Of a DNA stretch of 41,300 bases, positions 1 to 11,781 are shown in pieces. Position 1 is the first letter of the stretch. Each line of letters starts with the position of its first letter. The translations under genes were made by a program, and so were the position numbers. Below the pieces are notes generated by a model, which worked only from the letters and a program-made list of their open reading frames with translations, ran no database searches and was not told the DNA's origin. The DNA is from a virus (Duplodnaviria > Heunggongvirae > Uroviricota > Caudoviricetes): positions 1 through 41,300 of IMG/VR virus record IMGVR_UViG_2778261153_000009, one strand, 5' to 3'.

Positions 1-1719
1 ATGATTTTTAGGGATAGCTTGAGAGTATTACCTTATGGTCGAGTAGATAATGATTTCTTCCAGATAGAAGAAAGACGTTCATGGAATGCAGGGCGATATT
101 ATTGGTCTAATAGAAGGATTTTTGGTTATATTGGAATTACTCAATCCAGTAATAAAGAGCTGAAAGATAAGTCGGGGAGAGAGGGATTCATAAGAAACCA
201 GGCTGCAAGAGAACTGAAAACTATTATATCTAATTTGTTAACTGAACTTGCTGATAGATTTTTTGGTTCACGTTCTGATGACCGTAAAGAGCTTTTAGAA
301 CAAGTTAAGCGTGAAAAAGAGTTAAGAAAATCTGCTCAACAACAAGCTCGAAAATCAACACAAAAAAGTTTTTCAGAAGCTTTGAAGAATCAGACACCAG
401 TTCTTGATGCTTCCTTGGAGGCTGTTAAAAGGCTGAAAACTAAGCTTGATAAAACTGATGGTTCGTTAGATTTAAACTATCTTAAAATTATAGACAGTGA
501 TCTTACAAACTTAGATGCGTTGCGCAGTGAAATTAAAACGCCTATCAAACCTCCAAAACTTGGAATGTATGAAGAGAAATATAGAGACTACAGAGATAAA
601 TTTAATGAGTTCTCTGCGTATATTCTACAAATGAAGTTAGCAATTAATAAACTTGATTCTGAATTAAATAAACTTGAGCCTTCATTGTCAGCGAAAAATC
701 ACCTTGAAAAAAATCAAGGTATTATTAATTCTAAACTAACTAAGTTTAATAACACGATAGAGGAGAAGATACATTCTCTTTTAAAAAAATGGGCCGATGA
801 AATAAAGGTTGATCGAAGTGATTATTATGCTAAAACTATATCAGTTGTTGATTCAATAGATAATGATTCACAAATTGAAAATGTGTTTAATTTGCTCGAT
901 AGTTTATATGTTGAGTCAGTTGATACCCTAACTTTCAAATATCAATCAATAATAAAAGGTCTCGATAGATTATTTGAAGGTATAAACTTAGATTCAGCAT
1001 TCTCATTATCTGAAGAAGAACGCTCATATTTTGAAGAAAAAGCTAAAAGTTTAAACGCGCTTGCACAGTTAGGTATTAGTGTTGAGATAATATCTCATGA
1101 ACTTGAAGAAATGGATTCTATGGTAACCAGAGGACTAAACTCTCTTCCTACTTCTGTAAAAGAACACCCTGGTTTTTCATTGGCGTTAAATGCTCACAGA
1201 TCGCTTACTCAACAAATACGTTTCTTATCACCTTTGAAAATATCAGGTTATCAATCCAGGCAGAGAATAACTGGAAAAAATATCATGGATTATGTCCTGA
1301 AGTTCTTTGGGGAGCGTTTCGAACGGCAACGAATAACTATTGAATTTAGTGAAGAGTTTAAGCAAATCGCAATAACAGATATACCATCAAGGATCTATCC
1401 TGTTTTTACTAATATTATCAACAATGCAATGTATTGGGTCAGTCTGTCAAATAATAGGCTCATAAAGATTGGTTTTGTGAATTCTTTGGTTATCATAGCA
1501 AATTCTGGTCCGGCAATTGATACCGATGATATCCCGCGACTATTTGAACTATTTTATAGCAAAAGAGCAAATGGACATGGGGTAGGTCTGTATCTATGTC
1601 GAGAAAACCTTGCTGTTGCACATCATAAAATATGGTATTCAGAACCTGATGAAGGCGATAACTATTTAATAAAAGATGGCGCTAATTTTGTGATCCAGTT
1701 CAATGGAGTGGAGTTCTAA
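1..1719 (+). CDS. Histidine-kinase-like protein (HisKA + HATPase_c) with long charged N-terminal region that looks coiled-coil; possibly 5'-truncated by window edge
   Basis: H-box EIISHELEEMDSMV (His codon 1096..1098), N-box FTNIINNAMYWV, G1 ANSGPAID, F FELFYS, G2 GHGVGLYL; H-to-N spacing ~105 aa. Confidence 0.7.
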   Translation: MIFRDSLRVLPYGRVDNDFFQIEERRSWNAGRYYWSNRRIFGYIGITQSSNKELKDKSGREGFIRNQAARELKTIISNLLTELADRFFGSRSDDRKELLEQVKREKELRKSAQQQARKSTQKSFSEALKNQTPVLDASLEAVKRLKTKLDKTDGSLDLNYLKIIDSDLTNLDALRSEIKTPIKPPKLGMYEEKYRDYRDKFNEFSAYILQMKLAINKLDSELNKLEPSLSAKNHLEKNQGIINSKLTKFNNTIEEKIHSLLKKWADEIKVDRSDYYAKTISVVDSIDNDSQIENVFNLLDSLYVESVDTLTFKYQSIIKGLDRLFEGINLDSAFSLSEEERSYFEEKAKSLNALAQLGISVEIISHELEEMDSMVTRGLNSLPTSVKEHPGFSLALNAHRSLTQQIRFLSPLKISGYQSRQRITGKNIMDYVLKFFGERFERQRITIEFSEEFKQIAITDIPSRIYPVFTNIINNAMYWVSLSNNRLIKIGFVNSLVIIANSGPAIDTDDIPRLFELFYSKRANGHGVGLYLCRENLAVAHHKIWYSEPDEGDNYLIKDGANFVIQFNGVEF

Positions 1720-1720
1720 T

Positions 1721-3469
1721 ATGACAGTGGCAAATTATAATTCTCTTGTCCAGAAAACTTTCTGCGAAAATGCAATTCGTTCCGTTGTCATGATTGATGA
1801 CGATTTTCTGACGTATTCTGAATCAATCAGGGCGTTGAATAACGAAGTTGATTTAGACTACAACAAAATTGACTCATCTAAACGAGCCGCTACTCTTGAG
1901 AGCTTTTTTCAATCTAAAAATATGATTTGTGATGTTGACAATGGTTCTGTTAATTTCGATGTGGATCGGATTAGAAAATCAGATCTTATTATTGTAGATT
2001 ATCATCTTGATAATAATGCACCTGATAAAACACTTAAACCATTACAAGATTTGAAAGACTCCGATCATTTAAATATGATTGTAATATATACTAGAGAGAA
2101 TTTAGAAACGGTTTGGATGCAGATATCATCGACTCTCAAAGGTGCTCTGGATATCAACAGCTTGATCATTGACTACGATAATGAAGATGTCCAAAGTTAT
2201 TGGGAAGACGTTGTATTACCGAACTTAAATGATAATGGTAATAAAGCTCTCACAAGAGATGAAACAATAGCCTATATTAAAGACAGTAAGCCTTGTAGAA
2301 GAATTAAAAGATTAATACATGATGATGCTGTGTTGGAGGATCAAAAGGATAAAAACTTCATTGCAAAAATGATTGCAGAATATGCTGTGTCTAGAAATGC
2401 AATTATTTCTAGCAACACATCTGGCAATGTCATTCGGGGTGATGAAAGCGGAGTAAAATGGATTCAATGTGGTAATATCTTTGTCTCCCTATTTCATAAG
2501 GTTCAAGATGATCATGAAAACGATGGAGATAGGATTTGGCAAACTCTCAATGATTCTCTCATTGAATGGAAACCATCTTATTATCAGTTAATAAAATCTG
2601 AAATTCAGAATGCAATCGAAGCTGAGGCTTTATCTTTTGTAAATCATTTGGCTAACGATCATTACGGTCAAGCTGCGTGGTTAAATGAGATATTAAAATC
2701 AGACTCGCCTGATATTAGATGTAGAAATATTGACTTTGTATTTGGTAATTTATCAGAAGAGCTTTATCAAAGACTTAAAAATAATAATACGCTGGATGAA
2801 TTTATCAAAAGTGTTTTTGATAGCTATTCAAATGAATACGCTAACAGCGGAGTTGCTGCATTGCTCCAATATTGCTCTTCAAAAATGGATCTGCCATCAA
2901 ATAATGATACTTATCACGAAATGTATCATGCTTTAAATATGAATTTGTCTTCAAAGAATTTTGAAGATGGTCATATTTCTACTGGCACTATTTTCTTTGA
3001 TACAGAGTCGAACAAATGGTATTTATGTGTATCTGCGGCATGTGATTTGGTTCCTACTCAGGGTAACGACCCTCACCATGTAAGATTAAGTCCGCACAGG
3101 CTCATTAAAGTTCTGGAGCTTTTTAACGCCAGTCAGAGTAAAGCATTGCCATTTGCTGAACATTCGAAATATATATATGTAATGCATAAAAATCAAAGAA
3201 AATATCTCTCTATTTTCGAAGGGGATAAAACGCTTCCTGTTGTTGATTATATGGTGGTGTTGAATCATGGAACAACAGTTGATGGCGAAGAAAAAAATAT
3301 TATTTCTGCCGTGTTTTTAAGTAATATGGATGGCAACGTGCAAAATGTTCCTGTCCGACTCAAACTTAAATCTCAACTGAGAACTGGTTATGCAGAAAGA
3401 TATCAGGCTATAGCGTCTCAGTATAGCTCAAGGATTGGTGTGGATTATGTATCAATGATGCTACCATAA
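1721..3469 (+). CDS. Receiver-like N-terminal domain fused to ~430-aa domain of unknown function
   Basis: ATG 1 nt after upstream stop with SD GGAGTGGAG; receiver-like pattern VVMIDDD / LIIVDYHL (Asp codon 1997..1999) / MIVIYT / K~140; C-terminal domain not recognised. Confidence 0.55.
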   Translation: MTVANYNSLVQKTFCENAIRSVVMIDDDFLTYSESIRALNNEVDLDYNKIDSSKRAATLESFFQSKNMICDVDNGSVNFDVDRIRKSDLIIVDYHLDNNAPDKTLKPLQDLKDSDHLNMIVIYTRENLETVWMQISSTLKGALDINSLIIDYDNEDVQSYWEDVVLPNLNDNGNKALTRDETIAYIKDSKPCRRIKRLIHDDAVLEDQKDKNFIAKMIAEYAVSRNAIISSNTSGNVIRGDESGVKWIQCGNIFVSLFHKVQDDHENDGDRIWQTLNDSLIEWKPSYYQLIKSEIQNAIEAEALSFVNHLANDHYGQAAWLNEILKSDSPDIRCRNIDFVFGNLSEELYQRLKNNNTLDEFIKSVFDSYSNEYANSGVAALLQYCSSKMDLPSNNDTYHEMYHALNMNLSSKNFEDGHISTGTIFFDTESNKWYLCVSAACDLVPTQGNDPHHVRLSPHRLIKVLELFNASQSKALPFAEHSKYIYVMHKNQRKYLSIFEGDKTLPVVDYMVVLNHGTTVDGEEKNIISAVFLSNMDGNVQNVPVRLKLKSQLRTGYAERYQAIASQYSSRIGVDYVSMMLP

Positions 3470-3540
3470 TTATTATATTTTAGGCGTGGTGATTTTTTTT
3501 CGCCATGCCTATTTTATATTTATCATCACAATGATGTTGT

Positions 3541-3957
3541 TTATTTTTGTTTAAGTCTTCTAAGCTTCATGCATTCTAATGAGAATAATAATAGAGTTGT
3601 GCTGTATATAAAGCCAGAGTTAGTTAATAACTTTAAATTTAATGCTTCAGGATTTTCACTGAGAAAGTGAAAGGCATAAACTAAGTATACAGCTAAAGTA
3701 GCCGTTCCAATTGTTGGTCCAATATCGCCTTGATCATGAGGTTCAAGGTTTACATTGAACTTGAAGATTAGCCATTCAAATCCCCAAGTAAAAAAAACAA
3801 CTAATATCATGGCTGCGAATAATTTCGCGATGTTATCTGCTGATGGATTCATCAGAACAGATTGTTTCTGAAAAAATTCACAAAGTGAGAGTCCGAAAAA
3901 AATAAAAAAAAGTGGTCTGGAACTAAATTTTTCAAAAACTTTGAATAGGGTTTCCAT
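3541..3957 (-). CDS. Small hydrophobic membrane protein, hypothetical
   Basis: 138-aa ORF with several hydrophobic stretches, AT-rich, convergent with the upstream operon. Confidence 0.4.
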   Translation of the reverse strand: METLFKVFEKFSSRPLFFIFFGLSLCEFFQKQSVLMNPSADNIAKLFAAMILVVFFTWGFEWLIFKFNVNLEPHDQGDIGPTIGTATLAVYLVYAFHFLSENPEALNLKLLTNSGFIYSTTLLLFSLECMKLRRLKQK

Positions 3958-3995
3958 TTTCTTTACCTTCAGGATTATATTAGCTATTCTGATAC

Positions 3996-5225
3996 TTAGG
4001 CTACCAGAGCATTTGATCTTTGAGCTTGAACGTAATCACTCCACCATTGCATCAAACTCTGTCGCTCTATCAGATATTCTGCACGATTGTATGCTGCGAT
4101 AATTTCATCTTTTTTCGAGTGGGCAAGCGCTGCCTCAAGAACTTCAGCTCTGAATTTACCAGACTCCTCTGCCGCTGTTCGTGCAATAGAACGCATACCG
4201 TGAGCTACAAGCTCGCCTCCGAACCCCATTCGGATGATAGCTGCGTTGGCTGTTTGTTCATGCATATGATTAAGAGGCGCTTTTATGCTGGGGAAAACCC
4301 ATTCTCTATGCCCACTTATTGATTTCATTAATTCAAGGATGCGCAAAGCTTCTTTACTCAAAGGAACTTTGTGAAGCTTTTTCATTTTCATGAAATCAGC
4401 AGGAATGTTCCAAATGCTGTTGGTTGTATCAATATCAGACCACCTTGCGCGAACGGCTTCACCCGGACGAACCCATGTCAACAATTGCCATTCAATTAGC
4501 ATACGTGTTTCCAACCGGATTGACGCATTCGTCAAAGATTCCATAAACCTTGGCAATTCGCTTGGGGGAAGGGCAGGCATATTTTGCTTTTTTGGTTTAC
4601 TGAATCTTTGACCAAGGTTGTCAGCCGGGTTGAACTCAATAAGTTCTTCAGTAGCTGCCCACCGGAAGATTTCATTCAGACGTGAAATGATACGGCGTAG
4701 AGTTTCCAATACGCCTCGTTGCTCAATAGGATCAAGGTGTTGTTTTAAGAGCTTAGGTCGGATCTCATTGATAGGGACATTACCCAGACCGGGAAAGACA
4801 TTTCTCTCTAAGCTGCGCCAGATGTCTGCTGCATGGTCTTGTGAGATACCTGATGTCTTTACCTTCTCATCTAACCATTTCCGCGCTACGGCTTGGAGAG
4901 TGTGCTCAGTAGCACTCTTTAATGCCTTCGCCTTATCGTTGTTATGGATTTGGGGATCAACACCATTTGCCAGAAAGGAGAGATATTCATCACGTAAGGC
5001 TCTGGCTCTTGCAAGGGTAAGGTGAGGATATGTCCCAAGGCTCATTTTGGTTCTTTTCTTGCTCACTGGTACTGCATACCTGAAATACCAATTTTTCTTG
5101 CCTCCTTTCGCCAAAGGAGCGATTCGTAGAATCAGACCATCACCGTCAAACAAGTTGATTTCTTTATCGGCTGGCTTGGTGCTTTTGATTTCAGTGTCAG
5201 TGAGCTTCTTAGCGATTTTTGCCAT
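3996..5225 (-). CDS. int: Tyrosine integrase, P4 family (IntA-like)
   Basis: N-terminus MAKIAKKLTDTEIK...LFDGDGLILRI, C-terminal SLMQWWSDY typical of P4-type integrases; start moved to Met15 of the ORF by analogy with IntA. Confidence 0.85.
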   Translation of the reverse strand: MAKIAKKLTDTEIKSTKPADKEINLFDGDGLILRIAPLAKGGKKNWYFRYAVPVSKKRTKMSLGTYPHLTLARARALRDEYLSFLANGVDPQIHNNDKAKALKSATEHTLQAVARKWLDEKVKTSGISQDHAADIWRSLERNVFPGLGNVPINEIRPKLLKQHLDPIEQRGVLETLRRIISRLNEIFRWAATEELIEFNPADNLGQRFSKPKKQNMPALPPSELPRFMESLTNASIRLETRMLIEWQLLTWVRPGEAVRARWSDIDTTNSIWNIPADFMKMKKLHKVPLSKEALRILELMKSISGHREWVFPSIKAPLNHMHEQTANAAIIRMGFGGELVAHGMRSIARTAAEESGKFRAEVLEAALAHSKKDEIIAAYNRAEYLIERQSLMQWWSDYVQAQRSNALVA

Positions 5226-5390
5226 TTTGGGACCCTCGGTTTTTGGACCCTTCTTAGTGGGTCCCATTCAGGGTGCCATAACTCGTAGTTCTCAGCAATT
5301 CTCACTGGACGACAATAGACGTAAAAAAGCCCGCAGAGCTTGTGCTGTGTGGGCTTAGTAGACTTCATTGAACTTCAAACAACTAAAAAG

Positions 5391-5849: not shown

Positions 5850-6665
5850 ATGTTGCAGCCAGCAAAAAAAGCATCAGTTATTAGCGCGCGGCTAACTAAA
5901 TACCTCAAAGATGGAGTGAGGATTGATGACTTTAGCTTTAGAAGGATGTTACGTGAGATTGAAGCACTTAGAGATCCTGTCTCTGAGGACTATCTTTTAG
6001 CGTTGGTCTATGGTGCACATGGCCAAGTGAATGAGGCGATAGGCTTCTTTGAGCGTTCCTTGCAGGTATGCCATAATGAGGTTGTTGCAAAGAATTTTCT
6101 TGTTTTCTTGTCAGATTACGGTACGTTGAAGAAAAGCTTTGAAACAAGCATTAAGCTTGCTGAAAGCTTCATATCCCCGTTTATTTATCTTCAAGCTTAT
6201 GAAAACTCCCTCTTTATGGGGAAGATGGCGTTGGCGGAGAAGTATTTCCAGTCATACTCTAAATTGTTCGGAGATAAGGAGCCTGAAAAAATGGACAACA
6301 ATTTTGATGAAGTTGTTTCCCAGGTCGAATCCTTTAAGCAACGTGCCGATCTTTCTGGTTTAGAATATGAACTTATTTTCAATAATGTAGCCAATGTCAT
6401 GGATTCTCAGAAGGTTCATCTTTCGGGAATGCGTTTTTATAATATTTCGGAAGAGAAAGTGAATGCGATTGTATTCATGACAAAGTCTTCTGATGCTGAA
6501 CAAATCGCTGATATGAATATTGAGCTTGCTTTTTCAATGGCTGAGCACGATTGTTTAGTCGGTAAAGATTTTGCTGTTTGGTTTGAATGTAAAGACACAC
6601 ATATTGAGCAGAATGCTATCTCCGAATTAGGTCTGATTACCCGGAGGGTTGCACATGCCGGTTAA
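5850..6665 (+). CDS. Hypothetical protein (AT-rich cargo between att and int)
   Basis: 271-aa ORF, no family recognised; overlaps the next gene. Confidence 0.5.
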   Translation: MLQPAKKASVISARLTKYLKDGVRIDDFSFRRMLREIEALRDPVSEDYLLALVYGAHGQVNEAIGFFERSLQVCHNEVVAKNFLVFLSDYGTLKKSFETSIKLAESFISPFIYLQAYENSLFMGKMALAEKYFQSYSKLFGDKEPEKMDNNFDEVVSQVESFKQRADLSGLEYELIFNNVANVMDSQKVHLSGMRFYNISEEKVNAIVFMTKSSDAEQIADMNIELAFSMAEHDCLVGKDFAVWFECKDTHIEQNAISELGLITRRVAHAG

Positions 6666-7038
6666 TAGTCAAGATTTTCTCGGTTTTGCAAAAGACTGTC
6701 ATCAACGTAATGACGAAATCGGCTATCGAAATGCTATAGCAAGATCCTACTATGGCGCTTACCATCATGTCTTGCCTTGTATGGTAAACGGGCCGAAAGA
6801 CAGTCATCAGGGGCTAATCAATTATTTGCAGGGCGATGCTTCAAGAGGAAGTGAAGTATATGAAGCTAGATATCTAAAAGGGATTAGTTTTATCCTGAGT
6901 CAACTTAAAGCTCAGAGGATTGTTGCAGACTATCGACTTGATCAATCGGTCACTTCTAAACAGTCTGAAGTTGCGATTCTAACAACTGAGAGGCTCTTTG
7001 CTAAGTGTACGGAAATGCTTAAATCGAGAGCCTCCTAA
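6655..7038 (+). CDS. Hypothetical protein, coupled to upstream gene
   Basis: ATG at 6655 preceded by SD GGAGGG; 11-nt overlap with upstream stop; contains RSYYGAYH (R-x6-H) motif. Confidence 0.5.
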   Translation: MPVNSQDFLGFAKDCHQRNDEIGYRNAIARSYYGAYHHVLPCMVNGPKDSHQGLINYLQGDASRGSEVYEARYLKGISFILSQLKAQRIVADYRLDQSVTSKQSEVAILTTERLFAKCTEMLKSRAS

Positions 7039-7067: not shown

Positions 7068-8224
7068 GTGATATTGCTGGTCGTATTACCGTCATATTCC
7101 TTTAAATATGAACCATAATGACGAAATAACATTTCCGGCCCTTTATGCCCCATTTGAGCTGCAAGCCAAAACAGGTTTGCTCCCCGGCTGATATGGCGGG
7201 TGGCGAATGTATGCCTAGTTTGATATGGATTTCTGTAACGAATACCTGCTTTTCGCAATGTTGGCACCCATGCTTTTTTCCTGATTGCATCAGCACTTGC
7301 CCAAGGCTTATTGGTCTTTGGATCTTCAAAGACAGTAGTATCCTTCATGAATGTAAATGGCTTCTGATTTATCAGCGCCAACATTGCCTCTTCTGTCAGT
7401 TCAACTTTCCGAGTACCTGCTTTTGTCTTTGTCCCTTTGATAACACCGACAACACTTGCGCTCTGGACATGGGCAGTTTTTCCAACAAAGTCGATATCAC
7501 GCCATCGAAGGGCACATAATTCAGAACTACGCAGGCCTGTATGTATAGCGAACCGGAACAGATTTTCCCATTGTTTGTTTCCGGCTGCTGCTAGTAATGC
7601 ATCAACTTCTGCTGGTGATAGCGGATCAACTACGTAGCTGCTTTCTGCTTCTGACTTATCACTTTGGTAGCGCGAAGCTGTTACTAACGATACGGGGTTA
7701 ATTTGAAGTACCCCATCGGTCACGGCTTCATCAAGTGCTGACCGCAGGAAAGATAACTGGTTGCGAATTGTTTTTAAGGTCGTTTTCTGATTTTGAATCC
7801 ACGCTTTCAGGGTTGCTGGTGTTAATTCACTTGCAGGGCAAATGTGAAGTGAGGCTAACGCACTACGGCATTTTTTATAGCCACCAATCGTAGAGGGTGA
7901 AAGTTTTCTTGTTTCGCAGATTTCAAGATATTCGTCCAGGTACATCTTTACCGTTTTGCCTGCAGCAGCATTACCAAAAATTTTCAAACGAGCAGAACGG
8001 GGAAAATATTCTGCATAAATGAATGTTCCCCTTTCGATCTTATTATGGATTTCGCCGAGTGTACGCTCGGCGTATTTAATGTTCTTTGGTGTTACTTCCA
8101 GATTGGAAAGCGGCTCACGACATCTAACTCCTTTGTAGGTGAAAGTTATATTGATCGTTTCTCCCTGGCGGTGTTTCCTGATTGTTACGCCGCGCGGTAG
8201 TTTGAGCAGTTTTGTCTGGCCCAT
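7052..8224 (-). CDS. int: Phage tyrosine integrase (lambdoid)
   Basis: C-terminal RHTFATRHISRGANLFWLAAQMGHKGPEMLFRHYGSY catalytic region; N-terminal arm-binding-like domain. Confidence 0.85.
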   Translation of the reverse strand: MGQTKLLKLPRGVTIRKHRQGETINITFTYKGVRCREPLSNLEVTPKNIKYAERTLGEIHNKIERGTFIYAEYFPRSARLKIFGNAAAGKTVKMYLDEYLEICETRKLSPSTIGGYKKCRSALASLHICPASELTPATLKAWIQNQKTTLKTIRNQLSFLRSALDEAVTDGVLQINPVSLVTASRYQSDKSEAESSYVVDPLSPAEVDALLAAAGNKQWENLFRFAIHTGLRSSELCALRWRDIDFVGKTAHVQSASVVGVIKGTKTKAGTRKVELTEEAMLALINQKPFTFMKDTTVFEDPKTNKPWASADAIRKKAWVPTLRKAGIRYRNPYQTRHTFATRHISRGANLFWLAAQMGHKGPEMLFRHYGSYLKEYDGNTTSNITKKAT

Positions 8225-8391
8225 TTTGCAACCTCACTAAGATCAATCCACCTCTCCTTAACGCCTTCAACCTTTAAAACCTGAACACCTTCACGCCAAA
8301 CACCGCGCTGTACACGTTTGTTTATTGCTTCAGGAGTTTCGCCAGTTTCTTTGCAATAAGTTGAGATAGGAACACAATCGAGGTTCAGCAT
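8185..8391 (-). CDS. xis: Excisionase-like small DNA-binding protein
   Basis: 68-aa basic ORF immediately upstream of and overlapping int; SD GGAG 6 nt before ATG at 8391. Confidence 0.5.
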   Translation of the reverse strand: MLNLDCVPISTYCKETGETPEAINKRVQRGVWREGVQVLKVEGVKERWIDLSEVAKWARQNCSNYRAA

Positions 8392-8432
8392 ACGTTTCTC
8401 CATTATCCCGTCTGCACACGGGAGCAACATTA

Positions 8433-9299
8433 TTAACGAATAGTGTCGTTACTTTGAAGTACAGCAAATGCCATTAATACTTCTAAAGTATATCTTCTAT
8501 AAAATTTAACAAAACCAACATAGAAAACATAGACGAAGAAAAAGCTAAGCATTATTGAAAGTAAACTATAAAGATAATCACTATGAGTACATAATCGATA
8601 AATAAAGGTTGGAACTGATACCCAAAATGAAATTATAAAGATTAAACATATGTTTCTGCAAAAACCATATAATGCAACATAGTTTTGAATTTTTGTTTGA
8701 TGTTGTTTTGAAAACTCATAAACATAATGATATGCCAATCTGAAGAGATCATCATCAAGTCCGTTTTTATCTTGTAATAATTGGCGATTTGTTATGAACT
8801 TTTTCTCATAACCTTCTTTGATCATTAACCATGTTGTATTAGCTAAATGAAATGGTAGAGATTGAGAATAACATAGTTTTTGTGTTATAAAATCCCATAG
8901 TATTATTGGGCATAATACGCATTTGATTATGCGATTCTTTATTTTTGTTTTTTTATCAGCGCTTCTCTCATCGCATGATGGGCTACAAATGCTTTCTGAG
9001 GTATCTATCAATTTTTTAAATAGATATTTGGAAGGATATCCTAATTCTTTATTCATGTATTTTTCGATAAAAAATGCTGACGTGATAGAAATAAAATGTC
9101 CAGCTATATAAGATATAATAACTATTGAAGCGTAGTTCAAAATGCCAAAGATTTGACTTTGACCTCTGAGCAATTCACTTAAGTCAATAACAATATCTAG
9201 ATCGAATGTCAAACCACAGAAATACATTAATAGGATAAAAAAACCACCTGGTATTAAATATCCAAGAAAGTCATAGAATGAGAATGGATTTTGATTCAT
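8433..9299 (-). CDS. Multi-pass membrane protein, hypothetical (AT-rich cargo)
   Basis: ATG at 9299 with SD GGAGA; multiple hydrophobic segments; AT-rich unlike flanking phage genes. Confidence 0.55.
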   Translation of the reverse strand: MNQNPFSFYDFLGYLIPGGFFILLMYFCGLTFDLDIVIDLSELLRGQSQIFGILNYASIVIISYIAGHFISITSAFFIEKYMNKELGYPSKYLFKKLIDTSESICSPSCDERSADKKTKIKNRIIKCVLCPIILWDFITQKLCYSQSLPFHLANTTWLMIKEGYEKKFITNRQLLQDKNGLDDDLFRLAYHYVYEFSKQHQTKIQNYVALYGFCRNICLIFIISFWVSVPTFIYRLCTHSDYLYSLLSIMLSFFFVYVFYVGFVKFYRRYTLEVLMAFAVLQSNDTIR

Positions 9300-9407
9300 T
9301 GTTGCTCTCCAATAATTTTTCAATTTGTAATATAACCTATATCTATATGTTAATAAATTACTTATATGTTCTTTTATGGCAGAGTTTGAATTCGTACGTG
9401 CTGATTT

Positions 9408-9944
9408 TTACGACTCAGTTAACTCTTTAAAGCGTTCCATAAACATCCCGTAGGCATGGCCCGGTGCCAGTGGAATCACGTTGAACATCTCTGTTGCCGG
9501 GATACCTTCCAGTACGGGCCAGAAAGAGCCATCATCAAGCCCGAGATCGCGGCGTTCGGTTGCCAGCATGATGAGATCGGCATATTTCACGGGCGTACTC
9601 ATAACCGGGGGTAACCCGTATTTCTCACGGATTACGGCGTCTATTTTTTCTTCCATCCGTTTATAGTCAGGAAGAAGGCGTTTCAGTGGAGCCGGGATGT
9701 CCTGGCAATACGCTTCTGTTGCATCATGCATTAACGCTTCAAAAGCAAATTCCTGCGGTACCAGCTGGCTGCAAAGCACCGCATGTTGGGCGACGCTGTA
9801 GAAGTGTGAAAGATGGCCGGCAAAGCGACAGATATTTGAAAGGGAAACCGCGATATCGTTAATATCGATGTTGTCTTTATTTATCCTGTCATAATAAAAA
9901 TGTTTCCCGGAAAAAGTTTTAATAAATGACATTTTGTTCTCCAC
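9408..9944 (-). CDS. yfdR: HD-domain phosphohydrolase (YfdR-like)
   Basis: 178 aa; HD-type metal-binding motifs (H..HD); length and sequence match my recollection of CPS-53 YfdR. Confidence 0.65.
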   Translation of the reverse strand: MENKMSFIKTFSGKHFYYDRINKDNIDINDIAVSLSNICRFAGHLSHFYSVAQHAVLCSQLVPQEFAFEALMHDATEAYCQDIPAPLKRLLPDYKRMEEKIDAVIREKYGLPPVMSTPVKYADLIMLATERRDLGLDDGSFWPVLEGIPATEMFNVIPLAPGHAYGMFMERFKELTES

Positions 9945-10950: not shown

Positions 10951-11313
10951 TTAACGACCTGCTGCGCGGAGTTTTCCGTCAGGTTCACCGGCAAGAGTCA
11001 GTAATTGTCCCTGGTCTTCCTGCAGAATAGTCAGGCGACCACCGCGATTGACATACATCGGCGTTTCGGTGGTGTCTTCTTCGGAAATTTTCCCGCGGTT
11101 AGTTGGGCGAACATATGAGAGTTTGTGTTTGATTTTCACACGGTTCTCATCAAACGGTTCGATTTCCAGGTTGAGCGAGACCTTACCTTTGGTTTTCGTG
11201 TTCATCACACCGGAAGCGACTTCACTGAGAACTGCGCCGATTTTGGTTTCAAATACGCCGCCGTCCAGCTCCCCGATAAATGCCTGCACATCAGTACTGC
11301 GTTCGCTAGCCAT
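10951..11313 (-). CDS. yfdP: Prophage protein (YfdP-like)
   Basis: 120 aa from ATG at 11313 with SD GAGGAG; upstream part of the longer ORF is GC-rich leader, not coding. Confidence 0.55.
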   Translation of the reverse strand: MASERSTDVQAFIGELDGGVFETKIGAVLSEVASGVMNTKTKGKVSLNLEIEPFDENRVKIKHKLSYVRPTNRGKISEEDTTETPMYVNRGGRLTILQEDQGQLLTLAGEPDGKLRAAGR

Positions 11314-11781
11314 TTTGCTGCTCCTCATCATATCGACCCTGCAAGGTCGGTTAGTTTCTCCACAAAACAGAGAAGAACACCTGCGGTGACTGCCGCCCGG
11401 ATGGATTGGGTTATGAGCCCGTCGTCCGGTGATGCTCTTCTCTGTTTTGTAAAAAGGACGGTACCAGCCGGAAGCAAGGGTACAAGCTGGTACCGCCAGG
11501 ACTACACACAGCATAAAGTTGTGGTGCCGGGTGCCTCCCGGTGCCTGGCGAAGGTTGCACACCAGGCGGGTGGGTATCCACAGAAGGTCGACTGTCAGCC
11601 TCAACCTTAACCCGCGTGCGCTGAGCCGCATTCACCACAACGCTAAGGATTCTCTCTGGTTGAAAATACTTAGCTGTTATGTGCCTGCTTTTAGCCACAT
11701 CAGGCGAGGTGGACCTGGTTATTCCCCAACAACAAGGATTCGGTTAATCTGGTTATCCCCAACAACGCAAAAGGAAAAGAA
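11314..11781. promoter_or_regulatory. GC-rich structured non-coding region between divergent genes (leader/regulatory or ncRNA)
   Basis: 15-bp perfect inverted repeat 11362..11376 / 11436..11450; 9-bp inverted repeat 11460..11468 / 11486..11494; two direct repeats CTGGTTATYCCCAACAAC at 11715..11733 and 11749..11766. Confidence 0.35.

What the first reader, a model, noticed from the sequence alone, without database searches (positions are those of the whole stretch)
8433..9299. AT-rich multi-pass membrane protein inserted beside xis
This gene is markedly more AT-rich than the flanking int/xis and yfdR-like genes and encodes a polytopic membrane protein with no recognisable family. The position at the start of the early-left region is typical for superinfection-exclusion or abortive-infection genes.
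Basis: inference. Interest (0 to 1): 0.45.

Follow-up and report, generated by a model that had tools for sequence, protein, structure and literature searches.

The report
Prophage-borne Csx27-like membrane protein cassette
This AT-rich gene next to the prophage excisionase encodes a four-helix inner-membrane protein from a large, untested family distantly related to the CRISPR accessory protein Csx27. It sits in a swappable cargo slot, so it is a reasonable but unproven candidate for a phage-exclusion or immunity-modulating gene.

Summary
Window 8433-9299 (-) is a real 288-aa gene, the lowest-GC stretch of the window (28.5% against 48.4%), with four transmembrane helices.

It is not quite familyless. 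Pfam finds nothing and PHROG 12528 has no known function. However, two independent Csx27 profiles (type VI-B CRISPR accessory membrane protein) recurrently match it and its relatives, all far below the NCBIfam cutoff.

- **Family:** 976 clusters at 50% identity across many phyla. There is no conserved neighbour, no fused domain, and GC is below the flanks in 79 of 80 loci.
- **Structure:** a confident AlphaFold model has no significant match among solved or viral structures.
- **Position in enterobacterial prophages:** the gene lies directly upstream of xis-int, whatever the xis or int type.
- **Cassette:** the gene plus its 108-bp spacer (8423-9412) is a discrete unit. Another E. coli strain carries two small ORFs in the same slot.
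- **P2-like phages:** a 42%-identical homologue, paired with a DUF4760 protein, is the third most common cargo of the gpA-gpQ antiviral hotspot. It does not appear among the systems cloned in that study.

The most likely role is a stand-alone membrane-acting exclusion or abortive-infection factor. This is inference only. Counter-defence or another early-lytic role is not excluded.

The parts
8433..9299 (-). CDS of the 288-aa four-TM protein (PHROG 12528; RefSeq WP_001075212 'hypothetical protein'); stop codon at 8435-8433
   Evidence: dN/dS 0.16-0.24
9300..9407 (-). 108-bp AT-rich (25.9% GC) spacer between the yfdR stop and the ATG, with GGAG at 9310-9307. It is identical in the divergent allele of L002. 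No consensus promoter or terminator was called here.
8423..9412 (-). The swappable cassette (gene plus spacer). In E. coli AVS0362, with the same yfdR and the same xis/int, this stretch is replaced by 610 bp carrying two small ORFs.
9204..9266 (-). TM1 (residues 12-32). It is preceded by the near-invariant N-terminal motif QNPFSxYDFLGYxIPG (residues 3-18).
9069..9143 (-). TM2 (residues 53-77), carrying conserved Y64, G67, H68 and S74, followed by E79 and the YPS motif (residues 88-90)
8676..9068 (-). Central cytoplasmic helical part (residues 78-208; family mean net charge +5.4). Its C-terminal end carries the conserved motif D.FR..YHY..E....H..K.QNYVALYGF.R.
8505..8675 (-). TM3, short periplasmic loop and TM4 hairpin (residues 209-265). 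This is the fastest-evolving part of the protein (dN/dS 0.33-0.68).
8436..8504 (-). Cytoplasmic C-terminal helix with the conserved motif F.KFYRR.(S/T)LE..M
8185..8391 (-). xis (excisionase, PHROG 2917), 41 nt downstream of the cassette gene. This is context: it is the conserved downstream neighbour in enterobacterial prophages.
9408..9932 (-). yfdR-like 5'-deoxynucleotidase. This is context: it is the upstream neighbour here, and conserved homology in about 3000 E. coli genomes ends at its stop codon.

Best explanation
The gene encodes a stand-alone inner-membrane protein with four TM helices, N- and C-termini inside, and a helical cytoplasmic part of about 130 aa between TM2 and TM3. It belongs to a large, horizontally mobile, uncharacterised family that is a distant relative of Csx27, the membrane accessory protein of type VI-B CRISPR and RADAR loci.

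In this lambdoid prophage it is a discrete, replaceable cargo cassette in the variable slot between yfdR and xis-int.

The most likely function is in phage-phage or phage-host conflict. As an oligomer in the inner membrane, it would either block entry of incoming phage DNA or open and depolarise the membrane when infection is sensed at its conserved cytoplasmic-face site. That would amount to superinfection exclusion or abortive infection by a single gene.

Shown here: the gene is real, the topology, the family and its Csx27 link, the cassette nature, and the conserved placement next to xis-int. Inferred: the oligomeric channel, the trigger, and the anti-phage outcome.
For: **Real gene under purifying selection.** dN/dS is 0.16-0.24.

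**Csx27 link.** The PADLOC Csx27 model matches the protein at E = 1.4e-5 over residues 6-268 and matches 81 of 112 diverse relatives, best 2.2e-10. A second VI-B membrane model (tm_4) matches 23 of 112. NCBIfam CAS_Csx27 is the only recurrent NCBIfam hit, 19 of 112, best 2e-6.

**Csx27 in defence loci.** Csx27 modulates Cas13b interference (bioRxiv 10.1101/092577). A Csx27-associated RADAR subtype is described (PMC7699616; PMC11676413).

**Stand-alone and mobile.**
- No conserved neighbour in 79 genome loci.
- 141 and 149 different Pfam families among the 142 and 133 neighbours scanned.
- No fused domains in longer members.
- GC below the flanks in 79 of 80 loci, median -8.5 points.
- A few loci are embedded in type I R-M or MADS loci.

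**Cargo slot.** The cassette 8423-9412 is swapped for other genes between the same yfdR and xis/int. Other cargo occupies the slot in O157.

**Conserved position upstream of xis-int.** This holds across several xis clusters that share no sequence similarity, including PrtN-type and DUF4224-type, and across two integrase clusters, with varying upstream neighbours.

**P2 hotspot.** A homologue (42% identity, E = 3e-45) lies in the P2 gpA-gpQ hotspot. It is 'system 3', with 1102 occurrences, in Table S5B of Rousset et al. 2022 (PMC9122126). Tested unknown cargo from the related P4 hotspot was defensive in 6 of 8 cases (bioRxiv 10.64898/2026.02.27.708500).

**Evolutionary pattern.** Conserved residues cluster on the cytoplasmic face, while the periplasmic hairpin evolves fastest.
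Against: - No experimental phenotype exists for any member. No paper mentions the RefSeq accessions or PHROG 12528, and the P2 homologue (system 3) does not appear in the table of cloned systems.
- No promoter-like site was called in the spacer. The gene is co-oriented with the leftward early operon, so it may be silent in the lysogen.
- Csx27 itself was reported to repress, not enhance, Cas13b interference.
- Most neighbours of distant homologues are ordinary genes, not defence genes.
- The Csx27 similarity is far below the curated NCBIfam cutoff: 14.9 against 65 bits.
- A pore or channel is not demonstrated. The monomer model has no significant structural match.
Confidence: 0.42

Rival explanations
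1. It is a counter-defence or immunity-modulating factor. The protein would be made early from the leftward operon after induction or infection and would dampen a host membrane-linked immune system, by analogy with Csx27 repressing Cas13b.
For: - The gene is co-oriented with, and lies inside, the early-left transcription unit, with no promoter or terminator called around it.
- Csx27 repressed Cas13b from two different loci.
- Early-left accessory regions of lambdoid phages house anti-host functions (own knowledge: lambda Gam and Ral, P22 Abc).
Against: - The family is widespread as a solitary chromosomal gene in many phyla, outside recognisable phages.
- E. coli has no Cas13b (own knowledge).
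- The homologue in P2-like phages sits in the hotspot known for defence cargo.
Confidence: 0.15
2. It has another early-lytic or host-takeover membrane function. Examples would be altering membrane physiology, transport or division during induction, with no role in excluding other phages.
For: - Its position is in the delayed-early leftward operon next to the nucleotide-metabolism gene yfdR.
- No lysogenic promoter was detected.
- Its topology resembles MotA/ExbB-type proteins, with weak non-significant hits.
Against: - The slot is dispensable and variable, and the same prophage backbone exists without the gene.
- The family is mostly non-phage and solitary.
- No partner of the MotB/ExbD type is present.
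Confidence: 0.13
3. It is a membrane-embedded enzyme or lysogenic-conversion factor acting on lipids or envelope precursors at the cytoplasmic leaflet.
For: - Invariant or near-invariant polar residues (Y14, Y64, H68, S74, E79, S90, H191, E195, H200, K203, N206, R215, K265, R269, E273) cluster at the cytoplasmic membrane interface.
- Some distant homologues neighbour glycosyltransferases and sugar epimerases.
- Int-proximal cargo in enterobacterial phages is often serotype-converting (own knowledge).
Against: - There is no sequence or fold similarity to any enzyme family.
- Glycosyltransferase neighbours occur in only 3 of 142.
- Known gtr/oac genes lie on the other side of int/att (own knowledge).
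Confidence: 0.1
4. It is a DNA-conducting channel, as was predicted computationally for the wider Csx27 family. It would take up or expel single-stranded DNA.
For: Makarova et al. 2019 predicted that Csx27-family proteins form ssDNA channels linked to natural transformation genes. That paper is not held in the library. The prediction is taken from PMC7642515 and PMC11662929.
Against: - None of the 79 genome loci shows a conserved competence, ubiquitin-system or WYL neighbour.
- The prediction itself is untested.
Confidence: 0.08

Closest known systems
Csx27, accessory membrane protein of type VI-B1 CRISPR-Cas13b (NCBIfam NF040557; PADLOC PDLC01605); also the accessory protein of Csx27-associated RADAR
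   Same: - Predicted transmembrane segments, four helices according to PMC7642515.
- Recurrent profile similarity over nearly the whole length: residues 6-268 against model positions 4-188 of 206.
- No enzymatic domain.
   Different: - About 75 residues longer in the central cytoplasmic part.
- Scores far below the curated cutoff: 14.9 against 65 bits.
- No cas13b, CRISPR array or rdrAB nearby. It is solitary in a prophage.
- Function untested.
'System 3' (DUF4760 + 4TM protein) of the P2-like gpA-gpQ hotspot, Rousset et al. 2022, Table S5B (PMC9122126)
   Same: - The 4TM protein is a clear homologue: 42% identity over 286 aa, E = 3e-45.
- It is also AT-rich prophage cargo in a variable slot.
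- It is also uncharacterised.
   Different: - There is no DUF4760 partner in this window, nor in any non-P2 locus examined.
- The phage type is different (lambdoid) and the slot is different (yfdR to xis).
Prophage inner-membrane exclusion and abortive-infection proteins (lambda RexB, SieB, HK97 gp15, T4 Imm)
   Same: A small polytopic inner-membrane protein encoded as accessory cargo of a temperate phage. RexB also has four TM helices (own knowledge).
   Different: - No sequence similarity. Pfam SieB matched 1 of 112 relatives at 1.3e-3.
- No RexA-like partner.
- A different genomic position.
- Expression in the lysogen is not shown.
MotA/ExbB/TolQ/ZorA stator-type proteins
   Different: - The hits are not significant.
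- No MotB/ExbD/ZorB-type partner gene.
- No sequence similarity.

Membership tests
Csx27 sensu stricto (NCBIfam NF040557 equivalog) | Score at or above the curated cutoff (65 bits) of the equivalog model | tested here: not met
   14.9 bits, E = 0.02, N-terminal 39 residues only. The best of 112 relatives reached E = 2e-6.
Csx27 sensu stricto (NCBIfam NF040557 equivalog) | Encoded next to cas13b and a CRISPR array | tested here: not met
   The neighbours are xis/int and yfdR/yfdQ in a lambdoid prophage. No conserved neighbour was found in 79 homologous loci.
Csx27 sensu stricto (NCBIfam NF040557 equivalog) | Modulates Cas13b RNA interference | not testable with these tools
   This needs an interference assay. 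It is reported for the Bergeyella zoohelcum Csx27 in bioRxiv 10.1101/092577.
Wider Csx27 family of membrane proteins (Makarova et al. 2019; paper not held, features taken from PMC7642515 and PMC11662929) | Four predicted transmembrane helices | tested here: met
   Four hydrophobic segments and an AlphaFold helical model
Wider Csx27 family of membrane proteins (Makarova et al. 2019; paper not held, features taken from PMC7642515 and PMC11662929) | Detectable profile similarity to Csx27 | tested here: met
   PADLOC Csx27 E = 1.4e-5 for this protein, and 81 of 112 relatives match, best 2.2e-10. NCBIfam matches 19 of 112. No profile-profile test against authentic Csx27 sequences could be run.
Wider Csx27 family of membrane proteins (Makarova et al. 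2019; paper not held, features taken from PMC7642515 and PMC11662929) | Operon association with natural-transformation, ubiquitin-system or WYL-HTH genes | tested here: not met
   No recurrent neighbour family at positions +/-1 or +/-2 in 79 loci
P2-hotspot 'system 3' (DUF4760 + 4TM), Rousset 2022 Table S5B | Homologous 4TM protein | tested here: met
   tblastn 42% identity over 286 aa, E = 3e-45. The sequence was read from Table S5B.
P2-hotspot 'system 3' (DUF4760 + 4TM), Rousset 2022 Table S5B | DUF4760 (1-TM) partner gene immediately upstream | tested here: not met
   No tblastn hit in the window (best E = 2). The partner was found only in P2-like loci L138-L144, L160, L161 and L165.
P2-hotspot 'system 3' (DUF4760 + 4TM), Rousset 2022 Table S5B | Located between gpA and gpQ of a P2-like phage | tested here: not met
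   Here the gene lies between yfdR and xis of a lambdoid prophage. The P2 arrangement is seen.
Superinfection-exclusion / abortive-infection membrane proteins (SieB, RexB, Imm, HK97 gp15) | Sequence membership in a known Sie/Abi family | tested here: not met
   No Pfam, PHROG-function or PADLOC hit other than Csx27/tm_4. SieB matched 1 of 112 relatives at 1.3e-3.
Superinfection-exclusion / abortive-infection membrane proteins (SieB, RexB, Imm, HK97 gp15) | Expressed from the repressed prophage (own promoter) | tested here: inconclusive
   The consensus scan found no promoter in the 108-bp spacer. The scan is crude, and AT-rich DNA can hide weak promoters.
Superinfection-exclusion / abortive-infection membrane proteins (SieB, RexB, Imm, HK97 gp15) | Reduces infection by other phages | not testable with these tools
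   This needs plaque, adsorption and injection assays.
PHROG 12528 | Full-length match to the family profile | tested here: met
   E = 8e-174, residues 1-288 against 1-288 of 288; the family has no known function.
MotA/ExbB/TolQ stator family | Significant fold or sequence similarity and a MotB/ExbD-type partner | tested here: not met

The most novel reading that the evidence does not exclude
The protein represents a previously unrecognised, very widespread class of single-gene membrane immunity (or immunity-control) modules. It would be a solitary, expanded Csx27 relative that works without Cas13b or RADAR, with a fold not yet seen among solved structures. Its conserved cytoplasmic-face site would sense infection and gate the membrane. 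If so, it would also explain what Csx27 does in CRISPR and RADAR loci.
Probability: 0.25. Interest if true: 0.75.

Novelty: new variant of a known kind. Interest (0 to 1): 0.45.

Why it matters
Csx27 is one of the few recurrent CRISPR and RADAR accessory proteins whose mechanism is still unknown. Here a much larger, solitary branch of the same superfamily turns up as swappable cargo in two kinds of temperate E. coli phages.

One is the lambdoid yfdR-xis slot. The other is the P2 gpA-gpQ hotspot, where the homologue is the third most common cargo in the published catalogue and does not appear among the systems cloned there.

The gene is present in tractable strains (CFT073, APEC O1). A simple cloning and plaque experiment could therefore assign a function to about a thousand protein clusters and shed light on Csx27 itself. 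If nothing is found, it remains ordinary unannotated prophage cargo.

Tried and rejected
**Searches that found nothing**
- Pfam on the protein and on 112 relatives: no family.
- NCBIfam: only sub-threshold Csx27.
- PDB sequence profile search: nothing at E <= 1.
- Foldseek against PDB and BFVD: nothing better than E = 0.3.
- AFDB50 was unavailable.
- Megablast against GenBank phages: no match. tblastn then found the Klebsiella and P2-like homologues.
- Longer family members carry no fused Pfam domain.
- Literature search for the accessions, for PHROG 12528 and for 'Csx27-like/family/homolog': nothing.
- Makarova 2019 and Makarova 2020 could not be read. I also could not obtain authentic Csx27 sequences for a profile-profile comparison.

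**Readings rejected**
- Spurious ORF: rejected because of purifying selection and deep conservation.
- Holin or lysis protein: rejected on position (next to xis-int), size and lack of any match.
- GtrA/Oac-type serotype converter: no similarity, and the gene is on the wrong side of int.
- Transporter: no similarity to any transporter family. Single stray hits occurred in 1 of 112 relatives.
- Conserved-operon hypotheses (competence, ubiquitin, WYL, Cas13b, RADAR, MotB-like): no recurrent neighbour.

Full report
**1. The observation**

The ORF list shows a minus-strand ORF at 8433-9323 whose first ATG is at 9299. A GGAG lies 8 nt upstream of that ATG. RefSeq annotates the same 867-nt CDS as a hypothetical protein, WP_001075212.

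Its GC content is 28.5% (GC3 21.8%). The comparison values are 44.0% for int, 45.9% for xis, 47.2% for yfdR and 48.4% for the whole window. It is the lowest-GC 867-bp stretch of the window.

Hydropathy gives four hydrophobic segments. The AlphaFold model is all-helical. Across 112 relatives, the part between TM2 and TM3 carries a mean net charge of +5.4, while the two short loops are acidic. That places both termini and the central part in the cytoplasm.

The gene is under purifying selection, with dN/dS of 0.16-0.24 against alleles of 78-85% protein identity. The TM3-loop-TM4 hairpin evolves fastest, at 0.33-0.68.

**2. What family it is**

Pfam finds nothing. PHROGs places it full-length in phrog_12528, which has no known function.

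PADLOC gives a weak match to Csx27, the membrane accessory protein of type VI-B CRISPR. The match has E = 1.4e-5 and covers residues 6-268 against model positions 4-188 of 206. PADLOC also matches a second VI-B membrane model, tm_4. NCBIfam's Csx27 equivalog model matches only the N-terminus, at 14.9 bits against a cutoff of 65.

I built the family to test whether this is noise.
- A word-indexed search gave 593 homologues, all unnamed.
- An exhaustive profile search gave 976 clusters at 50% identity, 218 of them at E <= 1e-30.
- Of 112 diverse members, 81 match PADLOC Csx27 (best 2.2e-10) and 23 match tm_4.
- Nineteen match NCBIfam CAS_Csx27 (best 2e-6), the only recurrent NCBIfam hit.
- Pfam gives only single stray hits.

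I conclude that the family is a distant, larger relative of Csx27 and not Csx27 itself. Members are about 280 aa against about 210 aa for Csx27.

Conserved positions form four motifs:
- QNPFSxYDFLGYxIPG at the N-terminus.
- GH...S....E......YPS at the cytoplasmic end of TM2.
- D.FR..YHY..E....H..K.QNYVALYGF.R just before TM3.
- F.KFYRR.(S/T)LE..M after TM4.

All four lie on the cytoplasmic face.

**3. Structure**

With a 133-sequence alignment, the model reaches a mean pLDDT of 84.5 and a pTM of 0.85.

MotA, PomA and ExbB appear among the weak hits. They share the order of elements (two TM helices, a cytoplasmic domain, a TM hairpin), but the similarity is not significant and no MotB-like partner exists. 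AFDB50 was not available.

**4. Genomic context here and in relatives**

In this window the gene order on the minus strand is yfdQ, yfdR, the gene, xis, int.

The gene occurs in 205 of 5426 complete E. coli genomes, including CFT073 and APEC O1. yfdR occurs in 3006 genomes, and homology to the window stops exactly at its stop codon.

Strain AVS0362 has the same yfdR and the same xis/int. There, window 8423-9412 is replaced by 610 bp carrying two small ORFs. An O157:H7 prophage has yet other genes after yfdR. The gene plus its 108-bp spacer is therefore a discrete cassette in a variable slot.

An 83%-identical allele sits between yfdR and a PrtN-type excisionase at a different chromosomal site. 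Its spacer and first roughly 150 nt are identical to the window, and the rest is diverged. That is a recombination mosaic.

Homologues of about 50% identity in Enterobacter and Klebsiella prophages again lie immediately upstream of a different xis and a different integrase. The Enterobacter xis is of the DUF4224 type.

In 70 IMG/VR viral contigs, the pattern gene, xis, int recurs with several xis clusters that share no sequence similarity and with two integrase clusters. The upstream neighbour varies.

**5. Context outside enterobacterial prophages**

A scan of one genome per species found relatives in Gammaproteobacteria, Bacteroidota, Bacillota, Chloroflexota, Acidobacteriota, Gemmatimonadota and others.

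Clustering of the five genes on each side in 79 loci found no conserved neighbour. Pfam scans of the +/-1 and +/-2 neighbours returned 141 and 149 different families. No family was seen more than four times: integrase in 4, and type I R-M subunits, MADS genes and glycosyltransferases in 2-3 each.

The gene is lower in GC than its flanks in 79 of 80 loci, with a median of -8.5 points and a maximum of -27. Longer members have no fused domain. The family is therefore a solitary, horizontally mobile gene.

**6. Link to a known antiviral hotspot**

tblastn against GenBank phages found a homologue in P2-like E. coli phages. There it lies between the portal gene and the replication endonuclease gene, just after a DUF4760 gene.

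Rousset et al. 2022 (PMC9122126) showed that this gpA-gpQ interval is a hotspot of anti-phage systems. Their Table S5B lists 'system 3, DUF4760', with 1102 occurrences, third in abundance. Its second protein, noted there as '4 TM', is this family. It is 42% identical to the window protein, E = 3e-45.

DUF4760 does not occur in their table of cloned systems, so it appears untested. The DUF4760 partner is absent from the window and from all non-P2 loci.

A 2026 preprint reports that 6 of 8 randomly chosen unknown cargo sets from the related P4 hotspot were defensive. It also reports that 15-32% of unknown P2 cargo proteins are predicted to be antiviral. These are useful base rates and not evidence about this gene.

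**7. What is known about Csx27**

Csx27 repressed Cas13b interference in E. coli (bioRxiv 10.1101/092577). According to PMC7642515 and PMC11662929, Makarova et al. 2019 placed it in a larger four-TM family. That family is linked to competence, ubiquitin-system and DNA-modification genes, and was predicted to form ssDNA channels. I could not read that paper.

A Csx27-associated RADAR subtype is also described. No mechanism has been established.

**8. Interpretation**

The identity is well supported: a solitary Csx27-superfamily inner-membrane protein carried as a swappable prophage cassette.

The function is inferred. I favour a membrane-acting exclusion or abortive-infection role, with a probability of about 0.4. 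The reasons are the defence-locus associations of Csx27, the P2 hotspot placement, the mobility, the variable slot, and the fast-evolving periplasmic hairpin set against a conserved cytoplasmic site.

Three points weigh against this reading.
- No promoter or terminator was called around the gene, so it may be expressed only with the early-left operon.
- Csx27 is a repressor of immunity in the one assay available.
- Most neighbours of distant relatives are ordinary genes.

Counter-defence, another early-lytic membrane function, a membrane enzyme and a DNA channel remain open.

**9.

The gene is at the int-proximal end of the leftward operon, not at its start.

**10. Verdict**

This is a real, well-delimited cargo gene. 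It is not familyless, because it is distantly related to Csx27, and it is not previously characterised. I rate it a new variant of a known kind and a good, cheap experimental target, of moderate interest.

Noticed in passing
window 5850-6665 (+) and 6649-7038 (+): This is an overlapping, co-oriented gene pair between int and the neighbouring island, with GC of 40-41%. The first gene is 271 aa (PHROG 17809, unknown function, weak TPR hits). The second is 129 aa (PHROG 5176, unknown function, weak PADLOC HEPN_IX hit at 1.4e-3). It could be a second, two-gene cargo module of the prophage.
   Followed up: no
window 1-5267: A separate island abuts the prophage. It has two large genes of 572 and 588 aa (RefSeq: 'ATP-binding protein' and 'response regulator receiver domain'), a 138-aa ORF, and a second integrase-domain gene at 3996-5267 (-).
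   Followed up: no
window 8429-8458 (-): A consensus promoter-like site (TTCAAA, 18 nt, AATAAT) lies inside the 3' end of the membrane-protein gene, just upstream of xis. It might serve xis-int, like lambda pI. It is a consensus match only.
   Followed up: no
L002 6001-6867 compared with window 8433-9420: The 83%-identical allele next to a PrtN-type xis is a mosaic. The 121 nt upstream and the first roughly 150 nt of the gene are identical to the window. The remainder differs by up to 22 of 51 nt per bin. A recombination breakpoint therefore lies inside the gene.
   Followed up: partly
L165 5464-6843 (Escherichia phage Entero_P88-like, PV468777.1); also L138-L144: In P2-like phages the family member is always preceded by a 165-aa DUF4760 protein (1 TM) and lies beside ParM/ParR-like genes in the gpA-gpQ hotspot. 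This is Rousset 2022 'system 3', with 1102 occurrences, and it appears never to have been tested.
   Followed up: partly
L163 3189-3798 (E. coli AVS0362) and L164 4195-5667 (O157:H7 MB9-1): Other prophages carry alternative cargo in the same yfdR-xis slot. AVS0362 has a 120-aa 'phage protein' plus a 71-aa hypothetical protein. O157:H7 has a small hypothetical protein, a disrupted SAM-dependent methyltransferase and a truncated 3'-5' exonuclease. The slot behaves as a diversity hotspot of lambdoid prophages.
   Followed up: partly
window 10951-11631 and 11300-11750: This is a locally GC-rich stretch (54-56%) with overlapping long ORFs on both strands. RefSeq annotates yfdP and a frameshifted hypothetical gene here.
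   Followed up: no
NZ_CP148393.1 13509-14372 (44.6-kb E. coli 'plasmid'): A 99.3%-identical copy of the gene lies on a 44.6-kb record typed as a non-mobilizable plasmid. It may be a phage-plasmid or an excised or misassigned prophage.
   Followed up: no
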